Shown here one piece after another: positions 1-6,000 of a DNA stretch of 64,000 bases. Origin of the DNA: Escherichia coli (GTDB lineage: Bacteria > Pseudomonadota > Gammaproteobacteria > Enterobacterales > Enterobacteriaceae). The position numbers were made by a program. The DNA is taken from the NCBI RefSeq assembly GCF_016903815.1, contig NZ_CP069973.1. One strand, 5' to 3'. The number at the start of each line of letters is the position of its first letter. Position 1 is the first letter of the stretch.

Positions 1-3000
1 TATTGGTGTACTGGAAAGCGGCATCACAGAGGCAATGTATCAGGAAATGGAACGGCTGATTGCTGATGCCAAACCTGCAAGCCGCCACCTTATTGGTCTG
101 AACATTACCCGGGACATTCCCGGCTACCTGTTTGCCGGTGGTGTGGCTTATGACGGCGATGTAATTACGGTTTACCCCGGATAAGTGAGGAATAATGAGC
201 ACAAAATTCAAAACCGTTATCACCACTGCCGGTGCAGCAAAGCTGGCAGCGGCAACCGCGCCGGGAGGGCGGAAGGTCAACATTACCACGATGGCCGTCG
301 GGGATGGCGGTGGTAAATTGCCTGTCCCGGATGCCGGACAGACCGGGCTTATCCACGAAGTCTGGCGACATGCGCTGAACAAAATCAGCCAGGACAAACG
401 AAACAGTAATTATATTATCGCAGAGCTGGTTATTCCGCCGGAGGTGGGCGGTTTCTGGATGCGTGAGCTTGGCCTGTACGATGATGCGGGAACGTTGATT
501 GCCGTGGCGAACATGGCCGAAAGTTATAAGCCTGCCCTTGCCGAAGGCTCAGGGCGTTCGCAGACCTGCCGCATGGTCATCATCGTCAGCAGTGTGGCCT
601 CAGTGGAGCTGACCATTGACACCACAACGGTGATGGCAACGCAGGATTATGTTGATGACAAAATTGCAGAACATGAACAGTCACGACGTCACCCTGACGC
701 CTCGCTGACCGCAAAAGGTTTTACTCAGTTAAGCAGTGCGACCAACAGCACGTCTGAAACACTGGCTGCAACGCCAAAAGCCGTTAAGACGGTAATGGAT
801 GAAACGAACAAGAAAGCGCCATTAAACAGCCCTGCACTGACCGGAACGCCAACGACGCCAACTGCGACAAAGGGGACTAATAATACTCAGATCGCAAACA
901 CGGCTTTCGTTATGACCGCGATTGCCGCCCTTGTAGACTCGTCACCTGACGCACTGAATACGCTGAACGAGCTGGCAGCGGCGCTGGGTAACGACCCGAA
1001 TTTTGCTACCACCATGACTAATGCGCTTGCGGGTAAGCAACCGAAAGATGCTACCCTGACGGCGCTGGCGGGGCTTGCTACTGCGGCAGACAGGTTTCCG
1101 TATTTTACGGGGAATGATGTTGCCAGTCTGGCAACTCTGACAAAAGTCGGGCGGGATATTCTTGCGAAATCGACCGTTGCCGCCGTTATCGAATATCTCG
1201 GTTTACAGGAAACGGTAAACCGAGCCGGGAACGCCGTGCAAAAAAATGGCGATACCTTGTCCGGTGGACTTACTTTTGAAAACGACTCAATCCTTGCCTG
1301 GATTCGAAATACTGACTGGGCGAAGATTGGATTTAAAAATGATGCCGATGGTGACACTGATTCATACATGTGGTTTGAAGCAGGCGACAACGGCAATGAA
1401 TATTTCAAATGGAGAAGCCGCCAGAGCACCACAACAAAAGACCTGATGAATCTTAAATGGGATGCTTTGTATGTTCTTGTTAAAGCCCTTTTCAGCAGTG
1501 AAGTAAAAATATCGACAGTCAATGCACTGAGGATATTTAATTCATCTTTTGGTGCTATTTTTCGTCGTTCTGAAGAATGCCTGCATATCATCCCTACACG
1601 AGAGAATGAGGGAGAAAATGGTGATATAGGGCCACTACGCCCCTTTACGCTTAATCTCAGAACTGGTCGGATAAGCATGGGGCATGGTCTTGATGTTACA
1701 GGGGATATATTTGCAAAACGTTTTGCAATTAACAGTAGTACCGGCATGTGGATTCATATGCGTGACCAGAATGTTATTTTGGGACGCAATGCGGTATCCA
1801 CCGATGGTGCGCAGGCATTACTTCGTCAGGACCACGCTGATCGCAAATTTATGATTGGTGGACTGGGGAATAAGCAATTTGGCATCTACATGATTAATAA
1901 CTCAAGGACAGCCAATGGCACCGATGGTCAGGCGTACATGGACAACAATGGCAACTGGCTTTGTGGCTCGCAAGTTATTCCTGGCAACTATGGCAATTTT
2001 GATTCCAGATATGTGAAAGATGTTCGACTTGGTTCACAGCAATATTATGGAGTGAACAACTGGCAAACATGGAATTTCCAGTGCCCGTCAGGTCATGTAT
2101 TGTCTGGTATTAATGTTCAGGATACAGGGTCCAACTCTGCCGATAATATAGCGGGCGTTTATTACAGACCCGTTCAAAAGTATATAAATGGCACCTGGTA
2201 TAATGTAGCGAGCGTTTAATATGATGCACTTAAAGAAAATAAAAGCGGGTAACGCTAAAACACTGGAACAGTATGAGTTAACAAAGAAACACGGAGTTAT
2301 CTGGCTTTACTCTGAGGACGGAAAAAACTGGTATGAGGAAGTGAAGAACTTTCAGCCAGATACAATAAAGATTGTTTACGATGAAAATAATATTATTGTC
2401 GCTATCACCAGAGATGCTTCAACGCTTAATCCTGAAGGTTTTAGCGTTGTCGAGGTTCCTGATATTACCGCCAACCGACGTGCTGATGACTCAGGGAAAT
2501 GGATGTTTAAGGATGGTGCCGTGATTAAGCGGATTTATACGGCAGACGAACAGCAACAACAGGCCGAATCACAAAAGGCCGCGTTACTTTCCGAAGCTGA
2601 ATCAGTTATCCAGCCGCTGGAACGCGCCGTCAGGCTGAATATGGCGACGGATGAGGAGCGCGCACGACTGGAGTCATGGGAACGCTACAGCGTTCTGGTC
2701 AGCCGTGTGGATCCTGCAAATCCTGAATGGCCGGAAATACCGCAATAAGTTGTATGATATCTGGAGTGAGCTAACGTATCTATGGCACAGAGTAAAACTT
2801 AATCTGACAGTCTGCTCTGTACCAAAAGCGGAACTTGCTTACATCGTGCTATGTTAGTTTGCTGGGAGCAGGTCATTATCTACGTGATTGCTATTTTATA
2901 ACTTGGATAAAATGGGGGATGAACATAATATCGAGACAGTGATTGCAGAGTTAGTCATTATAGGCGGGCATCAGTTCATGCCGGATCTCTAATGCAATTA

Positions 3001-6000
3001 TCAGGAAAATATGGGACGTTTTATCAATCAGAGGAAATATGTTACAGTTCAGCTTTGTATCAAATGACGTTGTTATGACTTACGACGGTGACAGCGGAGA
3101 ACAAATAATTTGGGTTTGGGAGAGTTTAAATAAATTTCAAACAGTATGCATTTCACGCATTTTTAACTTTCAACTCCAGGACTTGAGAAACCCACCGTCA
3201 ACCGTTCAGGATTTTAATGATTATGAATATTCCTTTAATTTTGGCACGCTTAATAATGAATACATAACAGTTCCGGGACGGATTCTAAGCATTAATCGAG
3301 ATGTCCTTATACATAAGTCCATCAAGCTTGAAAGGAAAGTATTTGCGTCAGAACGCAACGTCTCCATTTTTGGTCGGCTTTCAAAACTACTCGATCACAC
3401 TAATCCCATCATCATCGGAGGAGATAAGTCGGAAGCTATACCAAAAAGCGTATTCCAGGAGTTGCAAAGTAAATTCCCCAACACAGGGGAACTGGATCGC
3501 TATGCTAATGCAAGGGTTCACGCTATTCTCGCAGGTTATCTTGATGGTATGAAAGATGCTCGCGAACGGTATGAACATTACCTAAACAGAAAAACAGTGA
3601 TCAGAAAAACCGACAAACTGGATTTAGAAGTTTTAAATAAGCTCGAAATTGAGAAATATACACTCATAAGAGACATTATCCAGGATGCGTTGAATAACAA
3701 AACTAACTTGTCTGAAGATGACTGGCAGAGCCTGATGATACCCTTCATCACATTACTTTTTCCAAAATATATCAAGGTCCTCGAGAAGGTTAAAATTTTC
3801 GACTATTACTCTAATCCTTCGGCTAAAACAAATCGGTTTATAGACATTGCACTGGTGGATGCAAACGGCAACCTTGATATCATCGAAGTCAAAAAGCCGT
3901 TTGATGATAAGATCCTTCGCAAGACGCCCTATCGCGACAACTATATTCCTACATCAGAACTTAGCGGCGGTATTATGCAGGCTGAAAAGTATATTTTTCA
4001 TTTATCTAAATGGGGTGTTAAGGGTGAAAAAGAGCTTACGAATGCCTACAAGAATTCTCTGCCAGCGGGAATGTGTATTCGTATATCTAACCCAAAAGCC
4101 ATCATCATTGTCGGGCGCGATCAGATAGCGAACGGTAACATGACCGACGGTCAGTTGCTTGATTTTGAGATAATCAAACGTAAGTACGCCAACATGATAG
4201 ACATATTGACGTACGACGACCTGTTGCGTCGACTTAATAATACGATTGAAGCATTGAAAGGTTGAATGTCCATGAGGTTCACACCCACAACGGGGAGCAG
4301 GTCACTTCCTATTGTTTGATTGACATACCATAACGTCTGCTTTTGGCTCAAAGCAGACTGTCTGATTTGATAGCTTTTGGGCTATGTAAATTGTCAGTTG
4401 AAAAATGAGTGAGTACAAATCAGGACGGGCGGGCGAGTTGCCCGCCTTTTCTTTAATCTGTTGTTTCATCCACTGACCAGCCAGGTCAAATAGCGTCTCA
4501 TGCTCTGCACAACAGAAAATAGTTGCACCCATTAACCACGGAGTTAAACGGATGAGCGACTATCATCATGGCGTGCAGGTGCTGGAGATTAACGACGGCA
4601 CCCGCGTCATTTCCACCGTATCCACGGCCATTGTCGGCATGGTCTGCACGGCCAGCGATGCGGATGCGGAAATCTTCCCCCTCAATAAACCGGTACTGAT
4701 TACCAATGTGCAGAGCGCAATTGCAAAGGCTGGTAAAAAAGGCACGCTGGCGGCATCGTTGCAGGCCATCGCCGACCAGTCAAAACCGGTCACCGTTGTC
4801 GTACGTGTGGAAGACGGCACCGGCGACGACGAGGAAACGAAACTCGCGCAGACCGTTTCCAATATCATCGGCACCACCGACGAAAACGGTCAGTACACCG
4901 GACTGAAAGCCCTGCTGGCGGCGGAGTCGGTAACCGGTGTTAAACCGCGTATTCTCGGCGTGCCGGGACTGGATACCAAAGAGGTGGCTGTTGCACTGGC
5001 ATCAGTCTGTCAGAAGCTGCGCGCTTTCGGGTATATCAGCGCATGGGGCTGTAAAACCATTTCCGAGGTGAAAGCCTACCGTCAGAATTTCAGCCAGCGT
5101 GAGCTGATGGTCATCTGGCCGGATTTCCTCGCATGGGATACGGTCACCAGTACCACCGCCACCGCGTATGCCACCGCCCGTGCGCTGGGGCTGCGCGCTA
5201 AAATCGACCAGGAGCAGGGCTGGCATAAAACGCTGTCCAATGTCGGGGTGAACGGTGTTACCGGCATCAGCGCCTCTGTATTCTGGGATTTGCAGGAGTC
5301 CGGTACTGATGCTGACCTGCTTAACGAGTCAGGCGTCACAACGCTGATTCGCCGTGACGGTTTCCGCTTCTGGGGTAACCGTACCTGCTCTGATGACCCG
5401 CTGTTCCTCTTTGAAAACTACACCCGCACCGCGCAGGTGATGGCCGACACGATGGCTGAGGCGCACATGTGGGCGGTGGACAAGCCCATCACCGCAACGC
5501 TGATTCGCGACATCGTTGACGGCATCAATGCCAAATTCCGTGAGCTGAAAACAAACGGCTATATCGTGGATGCGACCTGCTGGTTCAGCGAAGAATCCAA
5601 CGATGCGGAAACCCTCAAGGCCGGAAAACTGTATATCGACTACGACTATACACCGGTGCCTCCTCTTGAAAACCTGACCCTGCGCCAGCGTATTACCGAT
5701 AAATACCTGGCAAATCTGGTCACCTCGGTTAACAGCAATTAAGGAGCCTGACCGATGGCAATGCCGCGCAAACTCAAGTTAATGAACGTCTTTCTGAACG
5801 GCTACAGCTATCAGGGCGTCGCGAAGTCCGTCACGCTACCAAAACTGACCCGTAAGCTCGAAAACTATCGCGGTGCGGGGATGAACGGCAGCGCACCGGT
5901 AGACCTCGGCCTTGATGACGATGCGCTGTCAATGGAGTGGTCGCTCGGTGGCTTCCCGGATTCGGTTATCTGGGAGCTTTACGCCGCAACCGGTGTGGAT

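What the first reader, a model, noticed from the sequence alone, without database searches (positions are those of the whole stretch)
2749..4551. Compositionally distinct cargo island inside the tail operon
The interval between the G stop and the FI start (~1.8 kb) is visibly AT-rich, including a 290-bp upstream intergenic region and the cargo ORF, while flanking P2 genes are GC-balanced. In P2 this interval holds Z/fun; here different cargo occupies it. This is a cassette-like replacement in an otherwise colinear phage genome.
Basis: seen in the sequence. Interest (0 to 1): 0.6.

Follow-up and report, generated by a model that had tools for sequence, protein, structure and literature searches.

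The report
Shedu defence cassette in P2 prophage
The AT-rich island between the tail-fibre and tail-sheath genes of this P2-like E. coli prophage is real, but it is the already characterised Shedu anti-phage nuclease gene sitting in the known Z/fun swap site of P2 phages, so the finding itself is ordinary; the conserved hairpins at its two borders are the only part that may hold something new.

Summary
Window 2749-4551 has 40.5% G+C, against 50.9% for the window and 56% for FI, and its codon usage is foreign. The upstream flank (H C-terminus, 5' half of G) is also low-GC. The segment actually swapped relative to P2 is narrower, about 2825-4330.

The single cargo ORF (3039-4265, 408 aa) is SduA of the Shedu defence system. 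It is 407/408 identical to E. coli SduA of PDB 8PS4/8PS5, and every residue shown to be needed for function is present. The same cassette was deposited as the P2-EC31 Z-region ORF1 (AJ512677). By strain, length and domain it is PD-T4-8 of ECOR31 (Vassallo 2022). Loeff et al. place Shedu in the P2 Z/fun hotspot. It occurs in 52 of 5,426 complete E. coli genomes, always between G and FI. Verdict: interpretation supported, already known.

One extra result: the cassette is bounded by two 24-nt hairpins (2810-2833, 4335-4358). Hairpins of the same two types bound at least 30 other cargo types in lambdoid prophages, plasmids and islands. A 95%-identical Shedu cassette in a Pantoea defence island shares exactly the hairpin-to-hairpin unit. 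How cassettes are exchanged is unresolved, and I found no description of this wider family.

The parts
2221..2748 (+). gpG tail-fibre assembly gene, the upstream backbone flank. Its 5' half is itself low-GC.
   Evidence: ORF; RefSeq annotation of the 99.8%-identical E. coli 7/2; GC.
2749..2809 (.). Conserved P2-type spacer after the G stop, ending in AATCTGACA. It is backbone, not cargo.
   Evidence: Aligned across 8 P2-like loci. Absent from the cargo-less phage GMS190.
2810..2833 (+). Left border hairpin (L site), GTCTGCTCT-GTACCA-AAAGCGGAA. The 5' arm is the P2-backbone type and the 3' arm is the cassette type; only 6 of 9 stem pairs form.
   Evidence: All P2-like loci keep it. Similarity to the Pantoea cassette starts here.
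2810..2875 (+). 66-nt left-end element: the L hairpin plus 42 nt ending in the box GGGAGCAGGTCA. It recurs in other mobile elements, next to unrelated genes.
   Evidence: 93 plasmids; 447 E. coli genomes; the similarity has sharp ends.
2825..4330 (+). The interval with no similarity to P2, that is, the swapped cassette as BLAST defines it.
2903..2931 (+). Predicted sigma-70 promoter TTGGAT-17-TAATAT for sduA (prediction only).
   Evidence: Annotated -35 and -10 in AJ512677, sequence read. It lies inside the 257 bp upstream that Vassallo et al. cloned with PD-T4-8. The consensus scan did not flag it.
3039..4265 (+). sduA: Shedu effector, 408 aa. N-terminal DNA-end clamp plus C-terminal PD-(D/E)xK nuclease (SduA_C, residues 224-396).
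   Evidence: PADLOC SduA 1.4e-219; Pfam PF14082; 407/408 identical to PDB 8PS4; functional residues present.
4292..4305 (+). Second copy of the GGGGAGCAGGTCA box, 30 nt before the right hairpin. It is in direct orientation relative to the copy at 2863-2875.
   Evidence: Direct repeat D3; sequence.
4335..4358 (+). Right border hairpin (R site), GTCTGCTTT-TGGCTC-AAAGCAGAC, 9 of 9 pairs, -14.2 kcal/mol.
   Evidence: Similarity to P2 resumes at 4331. Similarity to the Pantoea cassette ends at 4362.
4359..4424 (.). Conserved P2-type spacer starting TGTCTGATT, the inverted partner of AATCTGACA. It is backbone.
   Evidence: Absent from GMS190.
4427..4456 (+). Intrinsic terminator (GGGCGGGCGAGTTGCCCGCC plus a T-run) that closes the V-G late operon and the cargo.
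   Evidence: -20.1 kcal/mol, z = -3.75. Conserved in all P2-like loci and in GMS190.
4457..4551 (+). Nearly invariant leader upstream of FI, inferred to hold the Ogr-dependent late promoter P_F.
   Evidence: Conservation. The P_F assignment rests on established P2 knowledge and was not tested here.
4552..5742 (+). gpFI tail sheath gene, the downstream backbone flank.

Best explanation
Window 1-11155 is the right third of a P2-like prophage of E. coli. Between the tail-fibre assembly gene G and the tail-sheath gene FI, where P2 carries Z/fun, it carries a 1.5-kb low-GC cassette with one gene, sduA.

SduA is the complete single-protein Shedu anti-phage system. The mechanism is inferred from a 99.8%-identical protein that has been studied experimentally. 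SduA forms a homotetramer. Its N-terminal domains clamp free ends of linear dsDNA, and its PD-(D/E)xK domain nicks the 5' strand about 13-14 nt from the end. This blocks phages that expose linear or recombination-dependent replication intermediates, such as T4 and T6.

In the lysogen the gene is probably transcribed from its own weak promoter upstream (predicted). It therefore protects the host, and with it the prophage, against superinfecting phages.

The cassette was acquired horizontally and is one of many alternative cargos of this slot. It is delimited by two related 24-nt hairpins. How cargos are exchanged is not established.
For: Identity: PADLOC SduA, full length, E = 1.4e-219; Pfam SduA_C; 407/408 identity to PDB 8PS4/8PS5/8PS6, 'Shedu effector protein'. 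W25, R106, K116, R154, Y181, E226, Q230, Y256, K263, D269, E283, K285 and Q314 are all present; these are the residues Loeff et al. showed to be required.

Context: the P2-EC31 Z-region record AJ512677 is 99% identical. PD-T4-8 from ECOR31 is a 1227-bp DUF4263 gene validated against T4. Loeff et al. place Shedu in the Z/fun locus of P2 prophages. Vassallo et al. describe a second P2 hotspot at the position of fun.

Distribution: 52 of 5426 complete E. coli genomes carry it at >=99% identity, all with the G-cargo-FI architecture and annotated 'Shedu immune nuclease family protein'. The exact protein is seen on 762 contigs.

Foreign origin. Swap boundaries.
Against: Nothing contradicts the identification. 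No expression or phenotype was measured for this copy. The promoter is a weak consensus match that the scan did not flag. This allele has S131 where the studied protein has P131, with unknown effect. Identity with PD-T4-8 is inferred from strain, length and domain; the sequence was not compared. How P2 itself tolerates an end-sensing nuclease is unexplained. My inference is that P2 replicates circle-to-circle with gpA bound to the 5' end and so exposes few free ends.
Confidence: 0.92

Rival explanations
1. The cargo is a lysogenic-conversion or virulence gene unrelated to phage defence, as the 2002 GenBank record labels it.
For: AJ512677 annotates ORF1 as 'putative lysogenic conversion protein'.
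Against: That label predates the discovery of Shedu. The protein is 99.8% identical to a structurally and functionally characterised anti-phage nuclease.
Confidence: 0.02
2. The gene is an inactive relic carried passively.
For: One substitution (S131) relative to the studied protein. The old P2-EC31 record shows a frameshift.
Against: The ORF is intact with all catalytic and DNA-binding residues. The identical protein is on 762 contigs. The 'frameshift' is a 1-nt difference in a T5 run in a Sanger-era record, while the ECOR31 gene is 1227 bp in the later assembly.
Confidence: 0.04
3. Cargo exchange at this slot is ordinary homologous recombination between the conserved P2 flanks of co-resident P2-like phages, and the border hairpins are only terminator-like structures.
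For: The flanks are 94-96% identical among P2-like phages over hundreds of bases. The R hairpin was picked up as terminator-like. No recombinase gene lies next to the slot. No target-site duplications were found.
Against: The same cassette in Pantoea shares no flank beyond the hairpins. A HAD+Nudix cassette is 99.4% identical between two unrelated backbones from exactly the L start to the R end. The loop sequences of L and R are conserved across unrelated elements, which a plain terminator does not need.
Confidence: 0.4
4. The hairpins are dedicated recombination sites: two inverted 9-bp arms around a 6-nt spacer, like the core site of a tyrosine recombinase. L recombines with L and R with R, and this swaps the cargo.
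For: Site architecture. In viral contigs, 55 of 107 L sites have an R site downstream, and only 9 have one upstream, 7 of them abutting at about 40 nt as in tandem arrays. There are 30 cargo types in 20 backbones, and one backbone hosts 9 cargos. Conservation steps up and down at the hairpins. The L site in the window looks like a hybrid.
Against: No recombinase was identified. By eye there is no similarity to dif/cer or to the attC core motifs. No empty single-hairpin site was found. The L-site sample was selected with a pattern that includes both arms, so conservation of the arms is partly circular.
Confidence: 0.35

Closest known systems
E. coli Shedu SduA (EcSduA; PDB 8PS4, 8PS5, 8PS6; Loeff et al., bioRxiv 10.1101/2023.08.10.552762)
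   Same: 407 of 408 residues. Same domain layout, catalytic residues and DNA-end clamp residues. Single-gene system. Located in the P2 Z/fun locus.
   Different: S131 instead of P131. Activity of this allele was not measured.
PD-T4-8 of ECOR31 (Vassallo et al. 2022, PMC9519451) and the P2-EC31 Z-region ORF1 (AJ512677)
   Same: Same locus, same 1227-bp DUF4263 gene. The P2-EC31 record is 99.0% identical in DNA over 1863 bases, border repeats included.
   Different: 18 nucleotide differences from AJ512677, one of them a 1-nt indel that shortens the CDS annotated there. The PD-T4-8 sequence itself was not available for comparison.
P2 Z/fun gene and the other cargos of the G-FI slot in P2-like phages
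   Same: Same insertion slot, same conserved flanks and border hairpins. Accessory cargo that is not essential for the phage.
   Different: Unrelated gene. P2 and Wphi carry a 900-bp ORF. pro147, L-413C, 12474III, 720R8 and P2_4B2 carry five other cargos, some on the opposite strand.
P2 old/tin hotspot between gpA and the portal gene (Rousset et al. 2022, PMC9122126)
   Same: The same idea of a defence-gene hotspot in P2-like prophages.
   Different: A different locus, outside this window. Rousset et al. did not analyse the G-FI slot.
pdif modules of Acinetobacter plasmids, and integron gene cassettes (recalled from memory, for the border hairpins only)
   Same: Discrete accessory-gene modules bounded by short sites made of inverted arms around a 6-nt spacer. 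Tandem arrays occur. The cargo repertoire is similar (GNAT, VOC, Nudix, toxin-antitoxin and defence genes).
   Different: No sequence similarity to XerC/D arms or to the attC R'/R'' cores. No integrase lies nearby. The hosts are prophages, plasmids and islands of Enterobacterales. The mechanism is unknown.

Membership tests
Shedu (SduA) defence system | C-terminal DUF4263/SduA_C PD-(D/E)xK nuclease domain | tested here: met
   Pfam PF14082, residues 224-396, E = 7.5e-33. PADLOC SduA full-length, E = 1.4e-219.
Shedu (SduA) defence system | Intact catalytic residues (E226, D269, E283, K285, Q314) | tested here: met
   All present at these positions. Their requirement comes from Loeff et al..
Shedu (SduA) defence system | N-terminal DNA-end clamp of the E. 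coli type (W25 and DNA-contact patches R106/K116, R154/Y181, Y256/K263) | tested here: met
   Residues present. The N-terminal 188 residues are identical to PDB 8PS6 except at position 131.
Shedu (SduA) defence system | Single-gene system with no obligatory partner | tested here: met
   It is the only ORF with support between the border hairpins.
Shedu (SduA) defence system | Homotetramer that nicks dsDNA at a fixed distance from 5' ends and protects against phage | not testable with these tools
   Reported for the 99.8%-identical protein and, for phage protection, for PD-T4-8.
Cargo of the P2 Z/fun (G-FI) hotspot | Lies between gpG and gpFI, with flanks colinear to P2 | tested here: met
Cargo of the P2 Z/fun (G-FI) hotspot | Alternative, unrelated cargos at the same breakpoints in other P2-like phages | tested here: met
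   Seven P2-like phages carry six different cargos. Breakpoints fall at window 2820-2845 and 4331-4422.
Cargo of the P2 Z/fun (G-FI) hotspot | Composition foreign to the phage backbone | tested here: met
Xer/dif-type modules (pdif-like) | Border sites match the XerC and XerD binding arms | tested here: not met
   The arms GTCCGCTTT / AAAGCGGAC compared by eye with dif, cer and psi (recalled sequences) show no similarity. This was not a formal test.
Integron gene cassette | attC site with R''/R' cores (RYYYAAC / GTTRRRY) and an integron integrase nearby | tested here: not met
   No such cores in or next to the hairpins. No integrase lies next to the slot.
Classical transposon or MITE | Terminal inverted repeats plus a target-site duplication | tested here: not met
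   Inverted hairpin ends are present, but there is no direct duplication at 32 distinct junctions.

The most novel reading that the evidence does not exclude
The two 24-nt hairpins that bound the Shedu cassette (L: GTCCGCTTT-GTGCCA-AAAGCGGAC; R: GTCYGCTYY-TCGCTC-AAAGCRGAC) may be the ends of a widespread, apparently unnamed class of exchangeable gene cassettes in Enterobacterales. These cassettes would move between P2-like prophages, a lambdoid-prophage slot whose flanks occur in 2942 of 5426 E. coli genomes, plasmids and chromosomal defence islands. The movement would be hairpin-directed recombination, either by an unidentified site-specific recombinase or by minimal-homology exchange. This would be functionally analogous to pdif modules or integron cassettes. 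It would explain how defence hotspots in unrelated phages draw on one common cargo pool.
Probability: 0.3. Interest if true: 0.7.

Novelty: already known. Interest (0 to 1): 0.3.

Why it matters
As stated, the finding adds one more instance of a documented fact: P2-like prophages carry interchangeable anti-phage genes between G and FI, and one of them is Shedu, whose structure and mechanism are solved. It is useful for annotation, because this lysogen is predicted to resist T-even-like phages.

The border hairpins could matter more. If they are real recombination sites, they give a concrete, testable handle on how defence and other accessory genes shuttle between unrelated phages, plasmids and islands. 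The hotspot literature I could search does not address this.

Tried and rejected
- Rfam on 2600-4700 found nothing above threshold. One L20-leader match at 26 bits against a gathering score of 58.7 is chance.
- RNAalifold on 14 copies of the 66-nt left element supported only the first hairpin, with no compensatory changes. I therefore drop the idea of a structured leader RNA.
- The roughly 100-nt 'left/right inverted repeats' annotated in AJ512677 are supported only over a 32-nt core (score 39 against a shuffle maximum of 23).
- The genome-contig scan with the stem-only pattern hit REP-like hairpins in many unrelated phyla and was uninformative.
- The exact 18-mer AGCGGAACTTGCTTACAT in viral contigs returned almost only the Shedu cassettes.
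- The 583-aa neighbour of sduA in Pantoea has no relative in the E. coli or phage collections and no PADLOC hit.
- The HNH cassette on a Klebsiella oxytoca plasmid is unrelated to the HNH cargo in an E. coli P2 slot.
- I searched for an empty lambdoid slot holding a single hairpin and found none. The smallest insert, 272 bp in E. coli A20, still has both L and R.
- The cargo-less P2-like phage GMS190 lacks the hairpins and both conserved spacers altogether, so it does not show a pre-insertion site.
- Literature: Rousset 2022 covers only the old/tin locus. Nilsson 2004 and Odegrip 2006 are not held. No paper in the library prints the hairpin sequences.
- The minus-strand ORF 4302-4532 was judged spurious: its length is not conserved and it overlaps the invariant FI leader.
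Full report

Yes. The ORF map gives H (195-2219), G (2221-2748), one 408-aa ORF (3039-4265), FI (4552-5742), then FII, E, E', T, U, D and ogr. The window is 99.8% identical over 50 kb to E. coli 7/2 (NZ_CP023820). The prophage ends between ogr (11155) and pflB (11475), and the rest of the window is E. coli chromosome.

G+C of 2749-4551 is 0.405, against 0.509 for the window, 0.563 for FI and 0.557 for T. Only 0.4% of all 1506-bp windows are as low as the core 2825-4330, which is 0.399. Codon usage of the ORF lies outside the range of 2000 equal-sized blocks of P2 structural genes.

The upstream flank is not GC-balanced: the H C-terminal part is 0.43 and the 5' half of G is 0.39. 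This fits the well-known mosaic nature of P2 tail-fibre genes, which I state from established knowledge. Also, the swapped DNA is narrower than G-stop to FI-start.

**2. Exact anatomy**

BLAST against P2 aligns window 2000-2824 (94.4%) and 4331-5000 (96.3%), with nothing in between. Six other P2-like phages (Wphi, pro147, 12474III, 720R8, L-413C, P2_4B2) break at 2820-2845 on the left and at 4331-4422 on the right. Each carries a different cargo, except Wphi, which matches P2.

At the borders lies a 32-nt inverted repeat, 2801-2832 and 4336-4367, 84% complementary. Each arm contains a 24-nt hairpin: L at 2810-2833 and R at 4335-4358. R folds stably and L is degenerate.

Downstream, a strong intrinsic terminator (4427-4447 plus a T-run) and a nearly invariant leader precede FI. 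By established P2 knowledge this leader holds the late promoter P_F; I did not test that.

A cargo-less P2-like phage, Yersinia phage GMS190, goes straight from the G stop to that terminator. It lacks window 2749-4424 entirely.

**3. What the cargo is**

The ORF matches PADLOC SduA models end to end (E = 1.4e-219). It has the Pfam SduA_C domain at residues 224-396. It is 407/408 identical to the 'Shedu effector protein' of PDB 8PS4, 8PS5 and 8PS6.

Loeff et al. (bioRxiv 10.1101/2023.08.10.552762) showed the following for that protein:
- It forms a homotetramer.
- Its N-terminal domains clamp free dsDNA ends.
- It nicks the 5' strand about 13-14 nt from the end.
- It protects against T6.
- T6 escape mutants carry mutations in uvsW.

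Every residue they found necessary is present here: W25, R106/K116, R154/Y181, Y256/K263, E226, Q230, D269, E283, K285, Q314. The one difference is S131 in place of P131. Both alleles occur in E. coli genomes.

**4. It is already known in this place**

GenBank AJ512677, 'Bacteriophage P2-EC31 proviral Z-region, ORF1', is 99.0% identical over 1863 bases. It already annotates left and right inverted repeats and a -35/-10 pair. Its shorter CDS comes from a 1-nt difference in a T5 run at window 3994.

Vassallo et al. 2022 (PMC9519451) isolated PD-T4-8 from the same strain, ECOR31. It is a 1227-bp DUF4263 gene cloned with 257 bp of upstream DNA, and it was validated against T4. [quoted passage not shown] That PD-T4-8 is this gene is my inference from strain, length and domain.

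Loeff et al. state that Shedu systems occur in the Z/fun locus of P2 prophages.

In RefSeq the cassette is present at >=99% identity in 52 of 5426 complete E. coli genomes. It is always between G and FI and is annotated 'Shedu immune nuclease family protein'. The exact protein occurs on 762 contigs. Among 50,697 deposited phage records, only the P2-EC31 fragment encodes it. Six IMG/VR P2-like contigs also do.

**5. How it most likely works**

Shown elsewhere for a near-identical protein, and inferred here: SduA senses the ends of linear DNA and nicks them. Inferred from position, and from the fact that the PD-T4-8 clone worked with its native upstream DNA: a weak promoter (TTGGAT-17-TAATAT, 2903-2931) drives sduA in the lysogen, and transcription ends at the R hairpin or at the terminator at 4427. 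My own inference, untested: P2 tolerates its own Shedu because it replicates circle-to-circle, with gpA attached to the 5' end, and packages from circles.

**6. An extension: the borders**

A 96%-identical SduA lies in Pantoea piersonii next to PDC-M09, a WYL regulator and a tRNA gene, which is not a P2 context. DNA similarity to the window runs from 2810 to 4362 at 95%. That is exactly from the first base of L to 4 nt past R, and nothing outside matches. The same hairpin family occurs four times in that island, between successive genes.

The first 66 nt of the cassette (L plus 42 nt ending in GGGAGCAGGTCA) recur widely:
- at 80-95% identity in 93 Klebsiella, Pantoea and Enterobacter plasmids;
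- in 447 E. coli genomes;
- with sharp ends to the similarity;
- next to unrelated genes, for example SMODS+SLATT in a lambdoid prophage, a TIR-domain gene in an island, and an HNH gene on a plasmid.

In each such locus an R-type hairpin follows 0.9-3 kb downstream.

A scan of viral contigs with the L core found 107 sites followed by 73 different downstream sequences. Of these, 55 have an R site downstream within 8 kb. Only 9 have one upstream, and 7 of those abut at about 40 nt as in tandem arrays.

The 55 cassettes fall into 30 cargo types and 20 upstream backbones. One lambdoid backbone, the slot between the DUF977 gene and hokD, holds 9 cargo types.

The cargos include:
- defence genes: a CBASS-type cyclase, DarT, a retron-type reverse transcriptase, a TIR-like effector and an SMC-like ATPase;
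- other accessory genes: a HAD phosphatase, Nudix, GNAT, VOC and histidine-phosphatase genes.

Conservation across 12 cargos in the lambdoid slot drops immediately after L and resumes at the loop of R. A HAD+Nudix cassette is 99.4% identical between two unrelated backbones from exactly the L start to the R end. There is no target-site duplication, no adjacent recombinase and no empty single-hairpin site. The flanks of the lambdoid slot are present in 2942 of 5426 E. coli genomes.

I could not decide between site-directed recombination and minimal-homology exchange. I also could not read Nilsson et al. 2004, whose title suggests that a related proposal was made for P2. No paper in the searchable library prints these sequences.

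**7. Verdict**

The thing itself, Shedu in the P2 Z/fun hotspot, is already known, so interest in the finding as given is low. The hairpin-bounded cassette family is recorded as the most novel reading that the evidence leaves open.

Noticed in passing
window 2810-2833 and 4335-4358; also L014 3888-8531, L148 5001-8008, L150 5001-7240, L187/L210, L144, L145: Two related 24-nt hairpins bound the Shedu cassette: L with loop GTGCCA and R with loop TCGCTC. The same pair bounds at least 30 other cargo types in lambdoid and P2-like prophages, plasmids and islands, sometimes in tandem arrays. Identical cassettes in unrelated backbones share exactly the L-to-R unit.
   Followed up: partly
window 2810-2875 (box at 2864-2875; second box at 4293-4304): A 66-nt left-end element (L hairpin plus 42 nt ending in GGGAGCAGGTCA) occurs in 447 of 5426 E. 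coli genomes and 93 plasmids, next to unrelated genes. It is not in Rfam, and only its first hairpin is supported as structure.
   Followed up: partly
window 1301-2480: The C-terminal part of tail-fibre gene H (G+C 0.43) and the 5' half of G (0.39) are also low-GC. They form a second mosaic module directly upstream of the cassette. G's 5' part matches the tail-fibre assembly genes of Mu, P1, P7 and D108 at about 90%.
   Followed up: partly
window 45926-47003, minus strand: ompF is split into two ORFs (256 aa and 116 aa). It is annotated as a frameshifted pseudogene in the near-identical E. coli 7/2. OmpF is a phage and colicin receptor.
   Followed up: partly
window 3994 compared with AJ512677 (L001): The 2002 P2-EC31 record lacks one T of a T5 run, which truncates its annotated ORF1. 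This is probably a sequencing error, because the ECOR31 assembly has the full 1227-bp gene.
   Followed up: yes
window 11156-11474; L013 (E. coli 7/2, upstream of the window): The P2-like prophage lies between pflA and pflB. In E. coli 7/2 it is complete from int to ogr. Its other hotspot, between gpA and the portal gene, carries HTH, reverse-transcriptase and FRG-domain genes. A 1044-nt minus-strand gene sits between S and V.
   Followed up: no
window 4302-4532, minus strand: A 76-aa ORF overlaps the conserved FI leader. Some phage records annotate 38-49-aa 'hypothetical proteins' here (L007 2595-2711, L011 2560-2676, L009 2899-3048). Its length is not conserved, so it is probably spurious.
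   Followed up: no
L014/L015 (Pantoea piersonii), 175-8805: A defence island next to a tRNA gene carries PDC-M09A/B, a WYL regulator, a 96%-identical SduA and an unknown 583-aa protein. Its G+C is 0.34-0.45, against about 0.58 for the flanking genome.
   Followed up: partly
window 3429 (codon 131 of sduA): There is an S131/P131 polymorphism. This window and E. coli 7/2 have Ser. The crystallised protein, the O121 strain, P2-EC31 and Pantoea have Pro.
   Followed up: partly
L148, L150, L187 and related loci; L260 (E. coli A20): Flanks of a lambdoid-prophage slot between the DUF977 gene and hokD occur in 2942 of 5426 E. coli genomes, and the slot was never found empty. The smallest insert, 272 bp, still keeps both hairpins.
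   Followed up: partly
window 57200-59200: The only other stretch of the window as AT-rich as the cassette is the start of the elfADCG fimbrial operon. This is ordinary E. coli chromosome.
   Followed up: yes
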